NCBI GenBank assembly: GCA_021851065.1
Contig: JAJZJQ010000001.1
Coordinates: forward strand, 9,640 to 73,639
DNA length: 64,000 nucleotides
Source of the DNA: Candidatus Micrarchaeota archaeon
GTDB taxonomy: Archaea > Micrarchaeota > Micrarchaeia > Micrarchaeales > CABMGC01
Direction: 5' to 3'
Shown here: piece by piece, positions 1,293 to 19,653 of the stretch
Layout: each line of letters starts with the position of its first letter
Position numbering within the stretch: position 1 is the first letter of the stretch
The notes under the pieces: model-generated
Database searches by the model: none
What the model was told of the DNA's origin: nothing
The model's input: the letters and a program-made list of their open reading frames with translations, nothing else
Program-made: the position numbers and the translations under genes

Positions 1293-2906
1293 TTAATCCC
1301 TGAACTCATCTCTCATTTTCATCTGTCTTCTCTTCCTGTTGTACCGAATGGAGAAGTTGTGGGTTGCATCCCTTATGCCCCTTATAAGCAGCATCATCTT
1401 GCTGTTGTTGTCAAATCGCCTTGGGATGGACTCGTTGGGAAGGTATATCTCCTCGAGCTTCTTTGCAAGGCCTATGGCAGGTATTTTAAGACCAAGCGAA
1501 GTTAAGGACTGGATGGCGCTATCCAGCTGCTCCATCCCCCCATCTATAAGTATCAGATCAGGCATCTTGGCCTTCTCTTCCAGGAGCCGCTTGTACCTCC
1601 TGTAGATGACCTCCCTCATGCTCGCAAAGTCATCTGTGCCACTGACAGTGCGCATCCTGAACTTCCTGTAGCCGCTCTTGTCTGGTTTCGCGTTTACAAA
1701 GCGCACCATGCCGGAGACTATATGCTCCCTACCAAGGTTGGAAATGTCAAACGATTCTATAACAGCAGGTATTGTAGGGAGATTGAGGGCTTCCTTCAGA
1801 TCTACCAGGGCGCTGTCATGTTCCATGTTTGCCTCTATGTTCTTTGCTGCAAGTTCGACAAGGGCCTTCTTTTCACCTTTTATCGGAATAGTTATGGATA
1901 CTGCGGCGCCCCGCAGTCTTGCAAGAAATTCCTCTAGCGCAGCTTTCTCCTCACCGTCTGTCCAGCATTCCTTTCCAAGTATTATTTCACGCGGGATCTG
2001 GTTTGATGAGTAGAATGCCTTTAGGAACTCCTGCTCGAAGTTCTCCTGGTTATCGGTCTCGAAATCCTTCTTGCCTAGAAGCACGCCTCTCCTGATGCCC
2101 ATCTGCACGGCAAGCACCCTATCGCCGAGCTTCTTGAAGGCCAGCACATCCTGGTCGTAATTCCGCTCATGGTCTACAATCTGCTTGCTTGATAGTGCGC
2201 CTATGCTATAGAGTTTGTTTCTCAGCTCGAGGGCGCGCTCGTATCTTCCTTGCCTTGATTCCTCGTTCATCTGCAACGTCAATTCGCCAACGGTCTTGCT
2301 GGTGTCACCTTTGAGAAATGCCCTTGCACCCTCCACCTGAGCCCCATACTCGACCTCGTTAACCCTGCCTATGCACGGAGCTGTGCAGATGCCTATGTGG
2401 TAGTTGAGGCACGCCCTCTTTGGCATCGTCCTGCAGGTCCTTAGCTTGAATATGCTTACTATCAGTTTTTGTATCTCCCTTCGCTTCCCCGCATCAGTAT
2501 ATGGACCGAATGAGTCAAATGCTGTGCCAGTCTTCCTGCTTGAAAAGACCCTTGGGAACTTATCCTTTGTAAGGGCTATGTACGCGAATGTCTTTGCATC
2601 TTTCAAGTCTATGTTGTACTTGGGGGAATGTAGCTTTATCATCTTGTTTTCAAGAAGCAGGGCCTCGACTTCGCTGCGCACAACTATCCAGTCTATGCTC
2701 CTTATGTTTGACACCAGATGCCTTGTCTTTATCGGAAGTCTTTGCGCACTTGAAAAATAGTTGCTGACCCTGTGCCTTAGGTTCTTGGCCTTCCCGCAAT
2801 ATATTATCTTGCCATCAAGATCCCTGAACAGGTATACACCTGGGTCAGTAGGTACCTGGGTAGAATCGAATCCCGATGCACCGTTTATCTGCATCATTAT
2901 CATCAC
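1293..2906 (-). CDS. uvrC: excinuclease ABC subunit C
   Basis: N-terminal GIY-YIG motif (GVYLFRD..IIYCGKAKNLRHRVSNYF); length and C-terminal endonuclease/HhH-like region fit UvrC; start overlaps the uvrA stop by 4 nt (ATGA). Confidence 0.9.
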   Translation of the reverse strand: MMIMMQINGASGFDSTQVPTDPGVYLFRDLDGKIIYCGKAKNLRHRVSNYFSSAQRLPIKTRHLVSNIRSIDWIVVRSEVEALLLENKMIKLHSPKYNIDLKDAKTFAYIALTKDKFPRVFSSRKTGTAFDSFGPYTDAGKRREIQKLIVSIFKLRTCRTMPKRACLNYHIGICTAPCIGRVNEVEYGAQVEGARAFLKGDTSKTVGELTLQMNEESRQGRYERALELRNKLYSIGALSSKQIVDHERNYDQDVLAFKKLGDRVLAVQMGIRRGVLLGKKDFETDNQENFEQEFLKAFYSSNQIPREIILGKECWTDGEEKAALEEFLARLRGAAVSITIPIKGEKKALVELAAKNIEANMEHDSALVDLKEALNLPTIPAVIESFDISNLGREHIVSGMVRFVNAKPDKSGYRKFRMRTVSGTDDFASMREVIYRRYKRLLEEKAKMPDLILIDGGMEQLDSAIQSLTSLGLKIPAIGLAKKLEEIYLPNESIPRRFDNNSKMMLLIRGIRDATHNFSIRYNRKRRQMKMRDEFRD

Positions 2907-5755
2907 CGGGACAGGATTGGTTTTAGGAACTGGCCGGTGTATGAGCTTTTTGTACTTGCTATCTCCTCAGGTGTGCCTGCTGCAACTACCCTTCCGCCTG
3001 CCTCGCCGCCTTCCGGGCCCAGGTCCAGGATATAATCGCAGCACTTTATGACATCCAGATTATGCTCTATTACAAATACGGTATTCCCTTTATTGACAAG
3101 GCCGTTCAGCACGCTTATGAGTTTTTTGGTGTCATCGAAGTGCAGCCCTGTGGTAGGTTCGTCTAGCATGTAGACAACGTGGCCCTGCTTGTTCTTGCTG
3201 AGTTCGCGGGATATCTTAACCCTCTGGCTTTCGCCACCGGAGAGGGTTGTGGCGCTCTGGCCCAGTTTTATGTATCCAAGACCGACCTCAAGCAGGGTTC
3301 TTAGCTTCCTTTCTATTGAAGGTATGTTCTGGAAGAAGAGGTGGGCTTCTTCCACTTCCATGTTCAGCACCTCGGAAATGTTCTTTCCCTTGTAGAGCAC
3401 TGCAAGGGTCTCCTTGTTGTATCTCTTGCCGTGGCATTCGTTGCACTGGACGTATACATCAGGAAGGAAATTCATCTCTATCTTTAGTACTCCATCGCCC
3501 TGGCATGTCTCGCATCTGCCTCCCTTGACATTGAATGAGAAGCGGCCCTCGTCGTAGCCCCTTACCTGCGACTCCTTTGTAGATGCAAAAAGCTTCCTTA
3601 TATCGTCAAACAGCTTCGTGTATGTTGCAGGATTGCTCCTTGGAGTGCGGCCTATTGGATCCTGGTCTATTACTATTACATTCTGCACGGCCTTTGGGAC
3701 ATCGAAGCTTGAATATTCTCCGATCTTTTCAGTCTGCTCGCCGAATTTCTTCTTGAGAAGGGGCATCGCCGTCTGGTTCATAAGCGTGCTCTTTCCGGAC
3801 CCGGATACCCCAGTTATCCCGCACAGTACGCCTAGTGGCAATTCTACTGAGATGTTCTTTAGGTTGTTTTCCCTTGCACCTTTTATCTTTACGAAGCCTG
3901 AAGGCTTTCTACGAGCTTTTGGCGTCTCTATTTTAAGCTGGCCGGACAGGTAGCTGCCTGTCAGGCTGCTTTTGCTTGACGCTATCTCTTTTGGAGTGCC
4001 CTGCGCGGTGATGTGGCCCCCGTGGGCACCAGCTCCGGGGCCCATGTCAACGATGTAGTCTGCAGCAAGTATGGTATCAAGATCATGCTCTACTACAATT
4101 AGGGTGTTTCCGATGTCCCGCAGCCCGTGAAGCGTGCGGATTAGCTTTGCATTGTCTCTTTGGTGCAGGCCTATGCTTGGCTCGTCAAGGATATATAGTA
4201 CGCCCATAAGATTGCTGCCTATCTGCGTGGCGAGGCGTATCCTCTGGGCTTCTCCCCCTGACAGGGTCTTTGCGCTTCTGGACAGGGACAGGTAGCCGAG
4301 GCCCACGTTCTTTAGGAACCCAAGCCGCTCGTTTACCTCCTTTAGCACAGGTCTTGCTATGGTAAACTCGTCTTCGGAAAGCTTTGAGGGCAGATTGCCA
4401 AAGAACCCTATTGATTCGTCTATGCTAAGGTCAGTCGCATCGATTATGCTCTTGCCCTGTATTTTTACTGCGAGGACTACAGGTTTTAGCTTCTTTGCGC
4501 TGCAGGCTGCGCATGGATCTGATTTCATGAATTTTTCTATTTCCTCTTTGCGCCATTCGCTTTCAGTCTCCCGGTATAACCTCATGGTCTGCGGTATGAC
4601 TCCTTCAAATCCCGCAGCGTGGTTATGCCACCTTCGTGAACCATCCCCCTCAGGTTCCCTGTCACCATAAAGAATTACGTCAAGCTGCTTGCTGCTGAGA
4701 TCTTTTATTGGAGTCCAGACGTCAAAGCCGTGTCTTTTCCCTGCCTCCGCAATCTGCTGCGCGCGCCAGCCAAGGTCAAATTTACCATATATAGCAATTG
4801 CCCCGTCCATTATGGATTTAGCAGGGTCAGGTATGAGCAGGCCCGTAGACAGCTCTGTTATCTCCCCAAGACCATGACAGGAGGGGCATGCGCCAAACGG
4901 GCTGTTGAATGAGAACATCCTCGGCTCAAGGCTTTCGAAGACTATCTCGGGATGCCTTGGGCATGCGCCGAACGTGCTGTACGATGTTTCGCCGGAAAAC
5001 CTGTCCAGCTCTTTTTTCTTGGCGTCATCGGTCTTTTTGCTTATTACAATCATCTTCCCTTTCCCAACAAGAAGAGCCTGCTCTACGGCCTCTGCGATCC
5101 TTGATCTTTCTTCGTCCGCTATCCTTACAGTGTCTATCACCGCCTCTATCCAATGCTTTTCATATCGAGCAAGCTTGACTTCACTGCTTACAGTATCTGA
5201 GGCGTATATTTTTTGGTCAACCCTTATCTTCGAGAAACCCTGCTTTTTGAGGTCGGCAATAACCTGTTCGTGTGTGCCTTTTTGGCCTCTCAAGACAGGA
5301 GCCAGGAATATGAGCGTTTCGCCTTTGGACGCCATCACAAGGCTTGTTATGTTCTCTGCGCTCTGGGGTTTTATAGAGCTGTTGCATTTGGGGCAGTGGT
5401 GCGTTCCCACCCTTGCATACAGCAGCCTTAGGTAATCATAGATTTCGGTTACGGTGCCTACGGTGGAACGCGGATTCTTGTTTGTGGTTTTCTGCTCTAT
5501 GCTGATTGCAGGGGAAAGACCGTCTATGCTGTCTACGTCAGGCTTGTCCATCAGCCCCAGGAACTGCCTTGCATATGCTGAAAGGCTTTCGACATACCGC
5601 CTCTGGCCTTCGGCATAGATCGTATCGAATGCAAGAGTGGATTTGCCGGATCCTGAAAGCCCCGTTATGACTATGAGCTTGTTTCTTGGCAGCTCTACAT
5701 CTATGTTCTTTAGATTGTGCTCTCTTGCACCTTTTATGAATATGTTATCGCGCAT
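2903..5755 (-). CDS. uvrA: excinuclease ABC subunit A
   Basis: 950 aa; two ABC halves (Walker A GLSGSGKSTL and GVSGSGKSTL; signatures LSGGEAQR and LSGGESQR); CxxC zinc modules. Confidence 0.95.
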   Translation of the reverse strand: MRDNIFIKGAREHNLKNIDVELPRNKLIVITGLSGSGKSTLAFDTIYAEGQRRYVESLSAYARQFLGLMDKPDVDSIDGLSPAISIEQKTTNKNPRSTVGTVTEIYDYLRLLYARVGTHHCPKCNSSIKPQSAENITSLVMASKGETLIFLAPVLRGQKGTHEQVIADLKKQGFSKIRVDQKIYASDTVSSEVKLARYEKHWIEAVIDTVRIADEERSRIAEAVEQALLVGKGKMIVISKKTDDAKKKELDRFSGETSYSTFGACPRHPEIVFESLEPRMFSFNSPFGACPSCHGLGEITELSTGLLIPDPAKSIMDGAIAIYGKFDLGWRAQQIAEAGKRHGFDVWTPIKDLSSKQLDVILYGDREPEGDGSRRWHNHAAGFEGVIPQTMRLYRETESEWRKEEIEKFMKSDPCAACSAKKLKPVVLAVKIQGKSIIDATDLSIDESIGFFGNLPSKLSEDEFTIARPVLKEVNERLGFLKNVGLGYLSLSRSAKTLSGGEAQRIRLATQIGSNLMGVLYILDEPSIGLHQRDNAKLIRTLHGLRDIGNTLIVVEHDLDTILAADYIVDMGPGAGAHGGHITAQGTPKEIASSKSSLTGSYLSGQLKIETPKARRKPSGFVKIKGARENNLKNISVELPLGVLCGITGVSGSGKSTLMNQTAMPLLKKKFGEQTEKIGEYSSFDVPKAVQNVIVIDQDPIGRTPRSNPATYTKLFDDIRKLFASTKESQVRGYDEGRFSFNVKGGRCETCQGDGVLKIEMNFLPDVYVQCNECHGKRYNKETLAVLYKGKNISEVLNMEVEEAHLFFQNIPSIERKLRTLLEVGLGYIKLGQSATTLSGGESQRVKISRELSKNKQGHVVYMLDEPTTGLHFDDTKKLISVLNGLVNKGNTVFVIEHNLDVIKCCDYILDLGPEGGEAGGRVVAAGTPEEIASTKSSYTGQFLKPILSR

Positions 5756-7694
5756 TCTTCTTCCCCCCAGATAGCTGCTTCATTTCCTCTATCCTGTCTC
5801 TTAATTCTATCGCCTTTTCGAATTCCAGGTTCTCCGCAAAAAGCTTCATCTGGGCATCCATCCGTATCAGCTCTTTTTGAACATCCGACTTGCCCAGATG
5901 CCTTATGCCCCTTATGGTAGTCTTCTTCTCCCCGACTTTCTTTATTATGGTCTTTGGAATTATCCCGTACTTCTTGTTGTAGCGTATCTGCGCAAGCCTT
6001 CTTTGCAGGGTTATTTGCATTGCGCTCTTTATAGACTTTGTCATCACGTCTGCAAATAGGACTACTCTTCCGTCGACGTTGCGTGCCGCCCTCCCTATTG
6101 TCTGTATAAGGCTCCTTTCGTCCCTGAGGAATCCTTCCTTGTCCGCATCGAGTATGAAGATAGTGCCAACTTCTGGTATGTCCAGTCCTTCCCTTAGCAG
6201 GTTTATGCCGACGAGTACGTCGAATTCGCCAAGGCGCAGCTGGCGTATGAGCTCAATGCGCTCAAGGCTCTCTATCTCGCTGTGCAGATATCTTACCTTG
6301 AACCCCTCCTTTGAAAGAAAGTCAGTGAGGTCCTCTGCCGACTTCTTGGTAAGAGTTGTTACAAGCACCCGGTTGCCGTTGCCTATTGTCTGCCTTGCCT
6401 GCCCCATCAGGTATTTCATCTGGCCTTCCATGGGCCTTACTTCAACAGTTGGATCCAGCAGGCCGGTTGGACGCGTGATTAGATCCACTTTCTGGCCGCT
6501 TTTAGACAGTTCATACTCAGCCGGAGTAGCCGAGACGAATAGGGTTGTGCCCAGCTTGGACTCGAACTCCACGAACTTTAGCGGCCTGTTGTCAAATGCG
6601 CTGGGCAGCCTGAAGCCGAAGTCCACGAGGTTCTTCTTTCGCATGTAGTCCCCGTTGTACATGGCCCTTGCCTGGGGAATCGTCTGGTGGCTCTCATCTA
6701 TTATGGTAAGAAAATCCGAAGGGAAATAATCCAGTAGGACGAATGGGGGCTCTCCAGGAGCCCTTCCGTCAAAATGCCTGCTGTAATTTTCTATGCCGTT
6801 TGTGTAGCCCATCTCGTTTATCATCTCTAGGTCATACTTTACCCTTTTCTCGAGCCTTTGGGCTTCAAGCTCTGCAAGCTTTGGAAGTTGCTGCTGCAGC
6901 TCCTTTTTGATTGATTCTATTGCCACCTGCTGCTTTTCTGGAGGTATCACGAACTGCCGTGCAGGATAGATTACGATGTCGGTTATGCTGCAAACCATGT
7001 CCCCAGTAATCGGATTGATCTCTTTTATGCTTGCGATTTCAGGGCCTTCGAGTTCTATGCGTATTATGTGGTTTTCATATGCAGGTATCACGTCTATCGT
7101 GTCGCCGCGCACCCTAAAGCCCCCTGGCTCCAGGTTCTGGTTGTTCCTTTTGTATTGAATCCCGATGAGAGAGCGCAGCAGGACCTCCCTGCTTGTTTCG
7201 TTGCCCACTTTCAGCACGACAGACATCTTCTTGAAATCCGCGGGGTCGCCTATCCCGTATATGCAGCTTATGCTTGCGACCACTATGGTATCCCTGCGGC
7301 TCACAAGGCTTGATACCGCATGGAGCCTCATATGGTCTATCTGCTCGTTTACTGAAGAATCCTTTTCTATGTATGTGTCGGTAGTGGGAAGGTAGGATTC
7401 TGGCTGATAGTAGTCGTAGTAGGACACGAAGTACTCCACCCTGTTCTGTGGGAAGAACTCCTGCAGCTCTGTGTAAAGCTGTGCTGCAAGCGTCTTGTTG
7501 TGCGCGATTATTAGCGTGGGCTTCTGGAGACGCTCTATGACATTTGCCATCACAAAGGTCTTTCCGCTGCCAGTTATGCCAAGCAGAGTCTGTTTTCCAT
7601 GCTTTGCAAATCCGCTTGCCAGTTGGCTTATTGCCTGCTGCTGGCCCGGAGAAACCTTAAAGTGAGACTTTAGCATGAATCCCATGGTAATCAC
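5745..7694 (-). CDS. uvrB: excinuclease ABC subunit B
   Basis: 649 aa; helicase motif I GITGSGKTF; C-terminal UVR domain (LEFEKAIELRDRIEEMK); overlaps the uvrA start. Confidence 0.95.
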   Translation of the reverse strand: MITMGFMLKSHFKVSPGQQQAISQLASGFAKHGKQTLLGITGSGKTFVMANVIERLQKPTLIIAHNKTLAAQLYTELQEFFPQNRVEYFVSYYDYYQPESYLPTTDTYIEKDSSVNEQIDHMRLHAVSSLVSRRDTIVVASISCIYGIGDPADFKKMSVVLKVGNETSREVLLRSLIGIQYKRNNQNLEPGGFRVRGDTIDVIPAYENHIIRIELEGPEIASIKEINPITGDMVCSITDIVIYPARQFVIPPEKQQVAIESIKKELQQQLPKLAELEAQRLEKRVKYDLEMINEMGYTNGIENYSRHFDGRAPGEPPFVLLDYFPSDFLTIIDESHQTIPQARAMYNGDYMRKKNLVDFGFRLPSAFDNRPLKFVEFESKLGTTLFVSATPAEYELSKSGQKVDLITRPTGLLDPTVEVRPMEGQMKYLMGQARQTIGNGNRVLVTTLTKKSAEDLTDFLSKEGFKVRYLHSEIESLERIELIRQLRLGEFDVLVGINLLREGLDIPEVGTIFILDADKEGFLRDERSLIQTIGRAARNVDGRVVLFADVMTKSIKSAMQITLQRRLAQIRYNKKYGIIPKTIIKKVGEKKTTIRGIRHLGKSDVQKELIRMDAQMKLFAENLEFEKAIELRDRIEEMKQLSGGKKNAR

Positions 7695-18302: not shown

Positions 18303-18602
18303 TTAAGAGTTCTTACTTATCTTTACCAGATACATCTGCGGCACTATGAGCTTGCGGGACGTTGATTTTGATGTCCAGATCTCAACCATGTACGCATCGC
18401 CTCTTCTCTCCTTCACTACACCTATCCTGCCCTTGTACCTTGGATGAGGTATATTCTTGAAGTTGCCAGTGGGCATTATCATGGCCCTCTCTCCGATCTC
18501 GAAGCTTTTTATCAGCTTTGTTATGCCTAGCCTGCTTGGCTTGTGATGCCTTGCCAACTGTCTTGTCCTGCCTACGAAGAGCCCGTGCGACCTCTGTGCC
18601 AT
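18303..18602 (-). CDS. rpl21e: 50S ribosomal protein eL21
   Basis: 99 aa from the internal ATG (MAQRSHGLFVGRTRQL...HPRYKGRIGVVKERRGDAYMVEI...); the upstream 25 codons of the track ORF are A/T-rich promoter sequence. Confidence 0.85.
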   Translation of the reverse strand: MAQRSHGLFVGRTRQLARHHKPSRLGITKLIKSFEIGERAMIMPTGNFKNIPHPRYKGRIGVVKERRGDAYMVEIWTSKSTSRKLIVPQMYLVKISKNS

Positions 18603-18654
18603 GAAAATCATGCCTTCTAAGTCTATTGAATTCATATAAGTCTGAACATAAAGG

Positions 18655-18664
18655 TATATAAATA
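18655..18664 (+). promoter_or_regulatory. TATA box (tatataaata) in the divergent eL21 / TBP-like intergenic region
   Basis: A/T-rich octamer about 25-35 nt upstream of GTG 18686 / ATG 18695. Confidence 0.5.
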
Positions 18665-18685
18665 CCATGCCGCTCATTTTTAAAT

Positions 18686-19015
18686 GTGAGTTTCATGGCC
18701 AAAGAGGTTGGGAGAACGAGATCCGGAAAGAGAGTTGAGCTTAACCCTAAGTTCAAGATAGAGAACATAGTAGCTAGCGCAGATCTGGGCGTCGAGCTGG
18801 ATCTCTACGGCATTGCCAAGGCCTCGCCTGACGTTGACTACGAGCCTGAGCAGTTTCCAGGCGCCATATGCAAGATACACGAGCCGAAGACAGCACTGCT
18901 GCTATTCAAGAACGGGAAGATAATATGCACCGGAGCCAAGACTGAAGCCGACATAAAAAGAGCCATTGACCAGGTAATAAAGATAGTCAAGAACTATATA
19001 CTGGAATCTTCCTGA
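18686..19015 (+). CDS. single-repeat (monopartite) TATA-binding-protein domain protein
   Basis: 106-109 aa; KIENIVASADLGVELDLYGIA...DYEPEQFPGAICKIHEPKTALLLFKNGKIICTGAKTEADIKRAI aligns by eye to one TBP repeat; the ORF stops after one repeat and the convergent DedA gene follows. Confidence 0.8.
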   Translation: MSFMAKEVGRTRSGKRVELNPKFKIENIVASADLGVELDLYGIAKASPDVDYEPEQFPGAICKIHEPKTALLLFKNGKIICTGAKTEADIKRAIDQVIKIVKNYILESS

Positions 19016-19653
19016 GGACGCCTGCCTGCTCCTTTTATCTTCTTAAGCGCTACATGGTATATCAGGTATAACACTATAGCAAATGCGGCTATAGCGGCAA
19101 ATAGGATATCGGCATTGCTCGCTGACAGCGCATAGTATCCGAACGCTATGAGGGCCGCATTCCATATCGCAGACCCTGCAAGAGAGTAGAAAAAGAATTT
19201 TTTAAGGGGCATCTGAGCGAATCCGGCGGGGAAGCTTATAAGGCCCCTAACCACAGGCAGCAGCCTTGAGACGAACACAGCAAAGTCGCCATTAGCGCTA
19301 AACCACCTGTCAAACGAGTCCAGCGTCTCCTTTTTAATGTGAAGGGCGCCAAGGTGTTTGTAGACCACGTCCTTCCCTACAAAGTATGCAATCGCATAAT
19401 CCACGCTTATCCCTATAACTGTGCCTATCATGGTGCATACAAAAGCGACGTATGGATTGAGAAGGTTCTTTGCGGCAAAGCTGCCGATCAGAGGAAGCAC
19501 CACCTCGCTTGGAATGGGCAGCGAGGCAGACTCAAGGCCCATGAGCACTATAACTGCAGCGTAAGCATACCGGATTATGAATGTACTGATCGTAGAGTAT
19601 GTGCCGGTAAGCAGATGCAGCACCGAGGCTGCCGTTACAAGTATGAAATACAT
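18994..19653 (-). CDS. DedA/VTT-family membrane protein
   Basis: 219 aa; LESASLPIPSEVVLPLIG, RLLPVVRGLISFPAG motifs. Confidence 0.85.
   Translation of the reverse strand: MYFILVTAASVLHLLTGTYSTISTFIIRYAYAAVIVLMGLESASLPIPSEVVLPLIGSFAAKNLLNPYVAFVCTMIGTVIGISVDYAIAYFVGKDVVYKHLGALHIKKETLDSFDRWFSANGDFAVFVSRLLPVVRGLISFPAGFAQMPLKKFFFYSLAGSAIWNAALIAFGYYALSASNADILFAAIAAFAIVLYLIYHVALKKIKGAGRRPQEDSSI

What the first reader, a model, noticed from the sequence alone, without database searches (positions are those of the whole stretch)
18686..19015. Half-size TBP: a stand-alone single TBP repeat
SEEN: the 106-109-aa product contains exactly one TBP repeat (KIENIVASADLGVELDLYGIA...YEPEQFPGAICKIHEPKTALLLFKNGKIICTGAKTEADIKRAIDQV). 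By eye it aligns along its whole length with either repeat of archaeal TBP. The ORF terminates after the repeat, and the downstream DNA belongs to a convergent DedA gene, so a frameshifted second repeat is excluded. It has its own TATA box (18655-18664), divergent from rpl21e.

ESTABLISHED: canonical TBP is a pseudo-dimer of two such repeats. Comparative genomic reports have noted monopartite TBP-domain proteins in a few Archaea, but I know of no assigned function.

INFERENCE: it may homodimerise into a symmetric, TBP-like saddle resembling the presumed ancestral state, or it may act as a TBP competitor or regulator.
Basis: partly seen in the sequence, partly recalled or inferred. Interest (0 to 1): 0.65.

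Follow-up and report, generated by a model that had tools for sequence, protein, structure and literature searches.

The report
Single-repeat TBP, probably a homodimer
A large clade of tiny archaea (Micrarchaeota) carries, at the place where its relatives keep the normal two-lobed TATA-binding protein, a highly conserved one-lobed version that most likely pairs with itself, which would be a natural example of the long-hypothesised ancestral form of this universal transcription factor.

Summary
ORF 18695-19015 (+), 106 aa, is exactly one TBP repeat (Pfam PF00352, E 1.8e-30). It has its own conserved TATA box, lies divergent from rpl21e, and ends against a convergent DedA gene.

It is not an artefact or a one-off. 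All 76 with both ends readable are 94-134 aa single-repeat ORFs, some on long-read contigs and on contigs up to 727 kb.

The gene sits where related Micrarchaeota keep their two-repeat TBP, next to rpl21e. It evolves under strong purifying selection (dN/dS about 0.07) and is more conserved than the adjacent ribosomal protein. The positions that by my recall contact DNA and TFB in solved TBP complexes never vary.

Inside the clade, one sublineage has tandemly duplicated and fused this gene, at the same locus, into a 196-aa TBP that models as a canonical saddle.

My best reading (about 0.7) is that it is these organisms' general TBP, working as a symmetric homodimer and derived by loss of one repeat.

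Not tested: whether a canonical TBP exists elsewhere in these genomes. I found no prior report in the searchable literature.

The parts
18695..19015 (+). Coding sequence of the 106-aa single-repeat TBP. It has a short basic N-terminal tail (residues 1-18), one TBP repeat (about residues 19-101) and a 5-residue C-terminal tail. The stop codon is included.
   Evidence: Pfam PF00352, E 1.8e-30, covers the full profile. The exact protein is P0121 in the public collection. The AF2 model has pLDDT 82.7 and its top 44 Foldseek PDB hits are all TBP. Homologues start with MAK.
18655..18666 (+). TATA box of the TBP gene (TATATAAATACC), centred about 35 nt upstream of the ATG.
   Evidence: Read from the sequence. 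The motif TATATAAATACCTTTC recurs upstream of the gene in many of the 74 aligned upstream regions.
18677..18690 (+). Second conserved A/T box (TTTTTAAATG, near the likely transcription start), followed by a Shine-Dalgarno-like GTGAG. The GTG at 18686 lies inside this element and is therefore not the start codon.
   Evidence: Position-specific base composition of 74 upstream regions aligned at the ATG.
18303..18602 (-). Ribosomal protein L21e gene, transcribed divergently. Its probable start is MAQRSH at 18602. Its own TATA-like box is at about 18631-18640. This is the conserved neighbour that marks the orthologous TBP locus.
   Evidence: Pfam PF01157 on the called gene in identical contigs. 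L21e lies divergently upstream in 68 of 80 species loci. It also lies next to full-length TBPs of relatives.
18994..19653 (-). Convergent DedA/VTT-domain membrane protein gene. Its 3' end overlaps the 3' end of the TBP gene by 22 nt, which leaves no room for a second repeat.
   Evidence: ORF list. Pfam PF09335 on the called gene. DedA lies within 400 nt downstream in 54 of the 80 species loci.

Best explanation
This is the general TATA-binding protein of a large clade of Micrarchaeota, reduced to one repeat.

Proposed mechanism (inferred): two identical 11-kDa subunits associate through the same central beta-sheet interface that joins the N and C repeats of canonical TBP. This makes a perfectly two-fold-symmetric saddle. 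The saddle binds and bends the TATA box using the conserved Asn/Val/Thr minor-groove contacts and the two Phe pairs. It presents two identical acidic stirrups (YEPEQFPG), and TFB can dock on either. Promoter polarity is then set entirely by TFB reading the BRE.

Proposed origin (inferred): one repeat was lost from a two-repeat ancestor. The likely route is recombination between repeats that intragenic gene conversion had already made nearly identical, as still seen in relatives.

The change is reversible: at least one sublineage duplicated and fused the single-repeat gene back into a two-repeat TBP.
For: Shown here:
1. It is a true TBP repeat, about 50% identical to each repeat of Pyrococcus TBP. 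In an alignment of 28 family members the invariant positions include N24, V26, F54, F71, T79 and Y49-E50-P51-E52-Q53-F54-P55-G56. By my recollection of the TBP-DNA and TBP-TFB structures, not checked here against a structure, these correspond to the DNA-contacting Asn/Val/Thr, the two intercalating Phe and the TFB-binding stirrup.
2. It is widespread and intact. The genome scan kept its best 80 of 407 related loci. All 80 (79 assemblies) are 75-95% identical to the query. All 76 that could be evaluated are 94-134 aa single-repeat ORFs, with no second repeat within 10 kb on either side. They include long-read MAGs and contigs of 727, 658 and 587 kb.
3. The locus is orthologous. The gene is divergent from rpl21e in 68 of 80 loci. 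Most full-length TBPs of related Micrarchaeota that I checked sit in the same place: P0015/L005, 11 of 11 close metagenomic relatives with enough upstream sequence, and P0295. One, P0013, does not.
4. Constraint is strong. dN/dS is about 0.065 while synonymous sites are saturated. The core averages 88% pairwise identity against 65% for the adjacent L21e, and it is the more conserved of the two in 99.8% of genome pairs.
5. Origin is single and inheritance vertical. The half-size repeats form a clade with 100% bootstrap support. So do the L21e genes next to them.
6. Re-fusion occurred. P0284, P0282, P0285 and P0283 (195-196 aa) consist of two half-size-type repeats joined by C-tail plus N-tail minus the Met. 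P0284 lies in the same synteny as the 98-aa P0104 and is nested in the half-size clade by L21e. It models as a canonical saddle: pLDDT 90.2, TM 0.85-0.92 to TBP crystal structures. L028 and L122 show the same junction.
7. A route for repeat loss exists. The two repeats of relatives' TBP genes share identical nucleotide runs of up to 116 nt.
8. The other single-repeat types found (P0155, P0199, P0195) are also at the rpl21e locus in other genomes. They are orthologues, not second paralogues.

From established knowledge, not tested here: in Archaea the polarity of the pre-initiation complex is set by TFB-BRE rather than by TBP asymmetry (Bell et al. 1999, recalled from memory).
Against: - I could not scan any whole genome of this clade, so a canonical TBP elsewhere is not excluded.
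- The closed genome of Ca. Mancarchaeum acidiphilum Mia14, a Micrarchaeon, is listed with 2 members of the TBP arCOG (PMC5498576, supplementary data 4). I could not establish their lengths, or whether Mia14 belongs to this clade.
- No homodimer model was computed and no binding data exist.
- The AF2 monomer model is only moderately confident (pLDDT 82.7; the other four models score 61-73).
- One MAG (JAJZKU01) carries two half-size copies on contigs of different coverage. This is probably mixed strains but could be paralogy.
Confidence: 0.7

Rival explanations
1. It is an accessory half-TBP. A canonical two-repeat TBP encoded elsewhere in the genome does the general job. The half-size protein modulates it, for example by capping one TFB or by forming mixed, inactive assemblies, acting as a competitor or regulator.
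For: Absence of a second TBP could not be tested. Precedents exist for non-essential monopartite TBP-domain proteins that coexist with full TBPs, namely Halobacterium TbpA and the Thermococcales proteins (PMC3597702). Mia14 is listed with 2 TBP-arCOG members.
Against: - The gene sits at the locus that holds the (apparently single) full-length TBP in relatives.
- It is more conserved than L21e.
- The positions I take to be DNA and TFB contacts are invariant.
- Among the top 120 hits of each of three protein searches, the only two-repeat TBPs more than 70% identical to it are the four re-fused ones.
- No full-length TBP in those lists shares a contig length with any half-size contig.
- The two full-length TBPs traced to NCBI assemblies (JBGGHI01, JAJRYS01) come from assemblies that are not among the 79 half-size assemblies.
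Confidence: 0.15
2. It is one half of a split TBP. A second, more divergent single-repeat gene elsewhere supplies the other lobe, and the functional saddle is a heterodimer.
For: Split genes are common in DPANN archaea (general knowledge). Mia14 has 2 TBP-arCOG members. One MAG has two half-size loci.
Against: - Every distinct single-repeat type found (main family, P0155/P0318, P0199, P0195) lies next to rpl21e in a different genome. They are therefore orthologues of one another, not partners.
- The re-fused proteins are made of two copies of the same gene, which argues that like-with-like pairing works.
- The repeat shows no N-type or C-type signature.
Confidence: 0.1
3. It is an artefact: an assembly collapse of two near-identical tandem repeats, a truncated gene call, or a decaying pseudogene.
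For: Related two-repeat genes do contain long identical stretches that can break or collapse short-read assemblies. L028 and L122 end at contig edges. The single 746-bp contig carrying P0195 could be such a collapse.
Against: - The same single-repeat ORF, with promoter, start, stop and flanking genes, occurs in 76 species loci.
- These come from SPAdes, MEGAHIT and long-read assemblies, inside contigs up to 727 kb.
- dN/dS is about 0.065.
- The exact window protein occurs in independent ENA, JGI and NCBI assemblies.
Confidence: 0.02

Closest known systems
Canonical archaeal TBP (two-repeat TATA-binding protein; e.g. Pyrococcus woesei 1PCZ/1AIS, M. jannaschii 2Z8U)
   Same: The repeat fold is the same and the sequence is about 50% identical to each repeat. 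The positions corresponding to the DNA-contact residues and the YEPEQFPG stirrup are conserved. The genomic locus matches that of the TBP of related Micrarchaeota.
   Different: There is one repeat per polypeptide instead of two, so a saddle needs two chains and would be exactly, not approximately, symmetric. It scores far below the NCBIfam TBP cut-offs (99 bits against 181-347), and NCBI annotation calls it a hypothetical protein.
Halobacterium NRC-1 TbpA, a truncated single-domain TBP paralogue (as described in PMC3597702)
   Same: It is a stand-alone protein with a single repeat that clusters with true TBP repeats.
   Different: According to PMC3597702, TbpA is very similar to the full-length TBPs of its own species and is not essential for viability. 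The protein here sits at the orthologous chromosomal TBP locus, defines a clade of at least 79 assemblies, and is under very strong constraint.
Thermococcales monopartite TBP-domain proteins (e.g. P. furiosus NP_578195, about 95 aa; PMC3597702, Table 3)
   Same: They are about 95-aa proteins consisting of one TBP-like domain.
   Different: They are only distantly related to TBP, form their own sequence cluster, coexist with a canonical TBP and have no known function. The protein here is a bona fide TBP repeat (E 1e-30).
Highly symmetric two-repeat TBPs of other Micrarchaeota (e.g. P0001, P0002, P0015)
   Same: These are the closest sequence relatives (55-69% identity). Most of those checked share the rpl21e-adjacent locus. 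Both stirrups are YEPEQFPG.
   Different: They keep two repeats in one chain. The repeats are 60-90% identical to each other and are kept alike by intragenic gene conversion, with up to 116 identical nucleotides.

Membership tests
TBP (Pfam PF00352; arCOG01764) | Contains the TBP repeat (helix-grip fold, S1-H1-S2-S3-S4-S5-H2) | tested here: met
   Pfam E 1.8e-30, full profile 1-85. The AF2 model's top 44 Foldseek PDB hits are all TBP.
TBP (Pfam PF00352; arCOG01764) | Two tandem repeats in one polypeptide forming a pseudo-symmetric saddle | tested here: not met
   There is one repeat only. The stop codon comes 5 codons after the repeat, and the window holds no second repeat. The same is true in 76 of 76 species loci that could be evaluated.
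TBP (Pfam PF00352; arCOG01764) | DNA-binding determinants: minor-groove Asn/Val/Thr and the two intercalating Phe per repeat | tested here: met
   N24, V26, F54, F71 and T79 are invariant in 28 family members. Their assignment to the yeast N69/V71/F99/F116/T124 positions is from my memory of the yTBP structure plus the alignment to Pyrococcus TBP. It was not checked against a structure.
TBP (Pfam PF00352; arCOG01764) | Acidic stirrup that binds TFB/TFIIB (YEPE[QL]FPG in the C repeat) | tested here: met
   Y49-G56 (YEPEQFPG) is invariant and is identical to the C-repeat stirrup of Pyrococcus TBP. Binding itself was not tested.
TBP (Pfam PF00352; arCOG01764) | Reaches the curated full-length TBP score (NCBIfam PRK00394 models) | tested here: not met
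   The best score is 99 bits against a cut-off of 278. All ten models fall below their cut-offs.
TBP (Pfam PF00352; arCOG01764) | Is the general initiation factor of the organism (the only or main TBP; binds TATA, recruits TFB) | not testable with these tools
   Whole genomes could not be scanned and there is no biochemistry. Indirect support comes from the orthologous locus, the strong constraint and the re-fusion.
Halobacterial TbpA-type truncated paralogue | A recent truncated copy of a full-length TBP resident in the same genome, at a secondary (plasmid or paralogous) locus | tested here: not met
   It sits at the rpl21e-adjacent locus that holds the full-length TBP in relatives. The nearest two-repeat TBPs, apart from the re-fused derivatives, are at most 69% identical. 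Co-residence with a full TBP was not testable.
Thermococcales monopartite TBP-domain family (PMC3597702) | A single TBP-like domain that is strongly diverged from TBP repeats and forms its own sequence cluster | tested here: not met
   It is about 50% identical to the TBP repeats of Pyrococcus and 55-69% identical to Micrarchaeota TBP repeats.
RNase HIII / DNA glycosylase TBP-like domains | A TBP-like domain fused to a catalytic domain, with sequence closer to those families than to TBP | tested here: not met
   There is no other domain in the 106 aa. Every significant Pfam, NCBIfam, PDB and Foldseek match is TBP. The best glycosylase hit (4ejy) has E 0.14.

The most novel reading that the evidence does not exclude
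A large clade of Archaea (at least 79 assemblies, mostly labelled Micrarchaeota) runs all of its transcription with a homodimeric, perfectly symmetric single-repeat TBP. In this phylum the two-repeat architecture, thought to be fixed since before the archaeal-eukaryotic split, is evolutionarily fluid. It is homogenised by gene conversion, lost by recombination between the repeats, and regained by tandem duplication and fusion.
Probability: 0.6. Interest if true: 0.9.

Novelty: new variant of a known kind. Interest (0 to 1): 0.8.

Why it matters
TBP is the textbook case of a protein thought to have arisen by duplication and fusion of a homodimeric ancestor. Every functional general TBP known so far, to my knowledge, has two repeats in one chain.

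A natural, strongly conserved single-repeat TBP at the orthologous locus would make that ancestral-type state directly testable. It comes with closely related re-fused forms that serve as built-in controls. The questions it opens are these:
- Does a symmetric dimer bind and bend TATA DNA?
- How is promoter direction set when both stirrups are identical?
- What does covalent linkage of the lobes add?

There is also a practical point. Annotation pipelines label these proteins as hypothetical, so such genomes can appear to lack TBP.

The gene conversion seen between the repeats of related TBPs bears on evolutionary studies that use the divergence between the two repeats as a measure of age.

Tried and rejected
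1. The direct test for a second TBP in the same genomes failed. Loci are limited to 10 kb on either side, so whole contigs could not be read.

2. Supplementary tables of papers on closed Micrarchaeota genomes gave little. The Mia14 tables give only a count of 2 for the TBP arCOG, without lengths. The A_DKE tables held as text contain no TBP entry. The ARM-1 paper has no supplements held.

3. I asked whether the single repeat descends from the N repeat, the C repeat, or an N/C chimera, as recombination between repeats would predict. A column-by-column comparison with 169 N and 169 C repeats found no diagnostic pattern, because the relatives' repeats are too homogenised. This stays undecided.

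4. The first tree attempt with Biopython timed out. I redid it with my own neighbour-joining code.

5. A motif search for a TFB gene in the window found nothing.

Only its first 14 or so loci were informative.

7. Multi-repeat representatives were set aside after reading their sequences. P0132 and P0202 (four repeats) look like eukaryotic TBP artefacts, and P0133 (three repeats) looks haloarchaeal. These assignments were made by eye.

8. Four further literature searches found no report of a single-repeat TBP in Micrarchaeota or DPANN.

Full report
**1.

The window holds an ORF at 18686-19015 on the plus strand. The GTG at 18686 would give 109 aa. The ATG at 18695 gives 106 aa and is the better start. 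Homologues begin with MAK, and the GTG lies inside a conserved Shine-Dalgarno-like element a few bases upstream of the ATG.

Pfam finds exactly one TBP repeat. It covers the whole profile (positions 1-85 of 85) with E 1.8e-30 and 105 bits against a cut-off of 22.9. All ten NCBIfam TBP models match with only one of their halves, and all fall far below their full-length cut-offs, for example 99 bits against 278. phmmer against PDB sequences aligns the protein about equally to the N repeat (75.9 bits) and the C repeat (78.7 bits) of Pyrococcus TBP.

tblastn with the repeat finds nothing else in the 64-kb window. The gene ends 5 codons after the repeat, and its last 22 nt overlap the 3' end of a convergent DedA/VTT gene.

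The exact 106-aa protein, with identical neighbours, is present in independent ENA, JGI and NCBI assemblies. This is not a mis-assembly.

**2. It is a large, intact and very conserved family**

A protein search returned 52 single-repeat proteins of 95-130 aa, 75-94% identical, among the best 120 hits. The rest were 175-191-aa two-repeat TBPs of Micrarchaeota and Diapherotrites at 43-69% identity.

A scan of one genome per GTDB species found 407 related loci. The 80 it kept were all 75-95% identical to the window protein. They come from 79 assemblies, nearly all labelled Micrarchaeota and a few labelled Micrarchaeales or Micrarchaeaceae. They include contigs of 727, 658 and 587 kb and long-read assemblies.

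In all 76 loci that do not run off a contig end, the ORF holds one repeat, is 94-134 aa long, and stops 0-25 codons after the repeat core. No second repeat lies within 10 kb on either side.

Synonymous sites between species are saturated (median pS 0.72). dN/dS for the unsaturated pairs is about 0.065. The repeat core averages 88% pairwise identity, against 65% for the ribosomal protein L21e encoded next door in the same genomes. The TBP is the more conserved of the two in 99.8% of genome pairs.

Among 28 diverse members the invariant positions include N24, V26, F54, F71, T79 and the whole stirrup Y49-G56, YEPEQFPG. From what I recall of the solved TBP-DNA and TBP-TFB complexes, these correspond to the minor-groove Asn/Val/Thr contacts, the two DNA-kinking phenylalanines and the TFB-binding stirrup.

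A promoter-like arrangement recurs upstream of the gene in many of the 74 aligned upstream regions: TATATAAATACCTTTC, then TTTAAATAG, then GTGGTA, then ATG.

**3. It occupies the orthologous TBP locus**

In 68 of the 80 species loci the gene is divergent from rpl21e, and in 54 a DedA gene follows within 400 nt. Several exceptions show local rearrangement. One has a transposase-like ORF inserted just upstream of the gene. Another has Spt5 and L11 upstream instead of rpl21e.

Full-length two-repeat TBPs of related Micrarchaeota mostly lie in the same position:
- P0015, on a 496-kb contig, is divergent from rpl21e beside RpoF/Rpb4, DUF655 and KsgA.
- So are all 11 close metagenomic relatives that have enough upstream sequence.
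- So is P0295.
- One lineage, P0013, has its TBP elsewhere.

A tree of the L21e proteins serves as a rough species proxy. It puts all 70 L21e genes that neighbour a half-size TBP into one clade with 100% bootstrap support, apart from the 21 L21e genes that neighbour full-length TBPs. The half-size repeats themselves also form a clade with 100% support, separate from both the N and the C repeats of relatives.

The simplest reading is a single origin in an ancestor of this clade, followed by vertical inheritance. More divergent single-repeat proteins are also next to rpl21e, each in a different genome: P0155/P0318 (117-118 aa), P0199 (118 aa) and P0195. They are therefore orthologues rather than candidates for a second subunit. 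P0195 rests on one 746-bp short-read contig, and I do not trust it fully.

**4. The unexpected part: the repeat number is fluid in this phylum**

Two findings support this.

First, the two repeats of the full-length TBPs of relatives are unusually alike, at 60-90% amino-acid identity (P0001 90%, P0002 87%). The central 40 or so residues are identical within a protein but differ between proteins. At the DNA level the two repeats of the P0015 gene share 116 of 117 central nucleotides. Other relatives share identical runs of 87, 63, 46 and 41 nt, against 8-14 nt in the more distant TBP genes at the low end of the same comparison. That is the signature of ongoing intragenic gene conversion. It also supplies long direct repeats 279 nt apart, and recombination between them would remove exactly one repeat in frame.

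Second, the reverse step has happened. P0284, P0282, P0285 and P0283 (195-196 aa) consist of two half-size-type repeats, both carrying VDYEPEQFPGAIYKIK. The repeats are joined by what is plainly the C-terminal tail of one copy followed by the N-terminal tail of the next without its Met, as in ...YILSENKS-AKRIKLHTEFKIEN....

P0284 lies in the same gene order as the 98-aa P0104: MoxR, Rpb4, DUF655, L21e, TBP, DedA, Pelota, KsgA. Its neighbouring L21e is 82-86% identical to those of the P0104 group, against a clade mean of 64%. It is therefore nested inside the half-size clade. Its two repeats are 93% identical in protein and 87% in DNA, so this is not an assembly artefact.

Two further contigs, L028 and L122, show the same junction and break at the repeat. 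L122's neighbouring L21e is identical to L172's, so it likely belongs to the same lineage as P0284. AlphaFold models P0284 as a canonical saddle with pLDDT 90.2. Foldseek gives TM 0.85-0.92 and rmsd of about 2 Å to crystal structures of TBP.

**5. What this means for mechanism**

A tandem copy of the single-repeat gene, fused in place, yields a protein that models as a normal TBP and has persisted long enough for its repeats to diverge. That is what one expects if the unfused protein already worked as a dimer of identical lobes.

Three further points fit this reading: the orthologous locus, constraint stronger than on a ribosomal protein, and full conservation of the positions I take to be the DNA and TFB contacts. 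I therefore conclude, at about 0.7, that this is the general TBP of these organisms and acts as a symmetric homodimer.

A symmetric TBP is mechanistically tolerable in Archaea. There, promoter polarity is set by TFB reading the BRE rather than by TBP asymmetry. This is established knowledge (Bell et al. 1999), recalled from memory and not checked here. Dimerisation, DNA binding and TFB recruitment are all inferred and none was tested.

The single-repeat state is derived, not a relic. The relatives checked here have two repeats, and to my knowledge so do nearly all other archaeal and all eukaryotic TBPs. I could not tell which repeat survived, or whether the survivor is an N/C chimera.

**6. 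What remains open**

I could not read whole genomes, so a canonical TBP elsewhere in these genomes is not excluded. The indirect evidence against one is limited to what the capped searches showed:
- In the listed hits of three protein searches, the only two-repeat TBPs above 70% identity are the re-fused ones.
- None of the listed full-length TBPs sits on a contig with the length of a half-size contig.
- The two full-length TBPs I traced to NCBI assemblies come from assemblies outside the half-size set.

On the other side, the closed genome of the Micrarchaeon Mia14 is tabulated with two members of the TBP arCOG (PMC5498576). I could not find out what they are. One MAG has two half-size copies on contigs of different coverage, probably from mixed strains.

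The rivals are an accessory or competitor role (0.15), a heterodimer with an undetected partner (0.1) and an artefact (0.02).

**7. Comparison with what is known, and novelty**

The known stand-alone TBP-domain proteins are of two kinds (PMC3597702). One is the Halobacterium TbpA, which is very similar to the full-length TBPs of its own species and is not essential for viability. The other is a group of roughly 95-aa Thermococcales proteins that are only distantly related to TBP and coexist with it.

The protein here is neither. It is a bona fide TBP repeat at the orthologous locus, and it defines a clade of at least 79 assemblies. Searches of the available literature found no report of it. 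NCBI's pipeline names several of these proteins "hypothetical protein", presumably because they miss the full-length TBP cut-offs.

I class it as a new variant of a known kind. A specialist in archaeal or eukaryotic transcription would be surprised by it. It would also make the homodimeric-ancestor hypothesis for TBP experimentally approachable, with natural fused and unfused forms available for comparison.

Noticed in passing
L005:10001-10576 (P0015 gene); also L098, L104, L172, L094-L097: The two repeats of full-length Micrarchaeota TBP genes share long stretches of identical nucleotides: 116 of 117 nt in L005, and runs of 87, 63 and 59 nt elsewhere, against 8-14 nt in the more distant TBP genes of the same comparison. 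This indicates ongoing intragenic gene conversion, which keeps these TBPs unusually symmetric (N-to-C repeat identity 60-90%).
   Followed up: partly
L172:5001-5591 (P0284); L122:574-1005; L028:1-415: These are two-repeat TBPs made by tandem duplication and in-frame fusion of the single-repeat gene. The linker is the C-tail plus the N-tail without its Met. They sit at the same locus and are nested inside the half-size clade. L028 and L122 end at contig edges, where the repeat breaks the assembly.
   Followed up: yes
L176 (746-bp contig, P0195); L175 (P0199); L091 (P0155): These are further, more divergent single-repeat TBPs, each also divergent from rpl21e. P0195 has the sequence type of the full-length group and an L21e of that group, which suggests an independent loss of a repeat. 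It rests on one short MEGAHIT contig, so a collapsed repeat cannot be excluded.
   Followed up: partly
window 18303-18677 (-): The rpl21e ORF is called as 124 aa from the ATG at 18677 in public gene calls. Homologues are 87-96 aa and align from MAQRSH, so the real start is probably 18602. That leaves a 92-nt divergent promoter region with two TATA-like boxes, at about 18631-18640 and 18655-18664.
   Followed up: partly
window 31513-31622 (+): Rfam reports a tRNA spanning 110 nt (55.9 bits, full model) that ARAGORN did not report. It is probably an intron-containing archaeal tRNA.
   Followed up: no
L084 (DATJMH010000022.1), L090 (JAKBPE010000013.1): Contigs carrying this archaeal single-repeat TBP next to rpl21e belong to MAGs labelled 'Candidatus Saccharimonadales bacterium' and 'bacterium'. 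They are probably mis-binned or mislabelled. Several others are labelled Marsarchaeota.
   Followed up: no
L045 and L047 (both JAJZKU01, MAS1.bin53): One MAG has two different half-size TBP genes on two contigs, with coverage of 111x and 57x. This is probably two strains in one bin, but true paralogy is not excluded. L047 starts at a contig edge, so its upstream neighbour is unknown.
   Followed up: partly
L077:8036-9463; L059:7952-9821: Some genomes have a rearranged locus. L077 has a 475-aa ORF that looks like a transposase (judged by eye) directly upstream of the TBP gene. L059 has Spt5/NusG, L11 and a membrane protein upstream instead of rpl21e.
   Followed up: no
window 18695-19015 and homologues: NCBI annotation names several of these proteins 'hypothetical protein' (for example KGI00_00905, M1354_02540, QXD23_01440), presumably because they score below every NCBIfam TBP cut-off. 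Genomes of this clade can therefore appear to lack TBP in automated annotation.
   Followed up: partly
window 1293-7685 (-): Three large adjacent ORFs of 536, 950 and 646 aa look like bacterial-type UvrC, UvrA and UvrB. This was judged by eye from their N-terminal sequences only and not checked with any tool.
   Followed up: no
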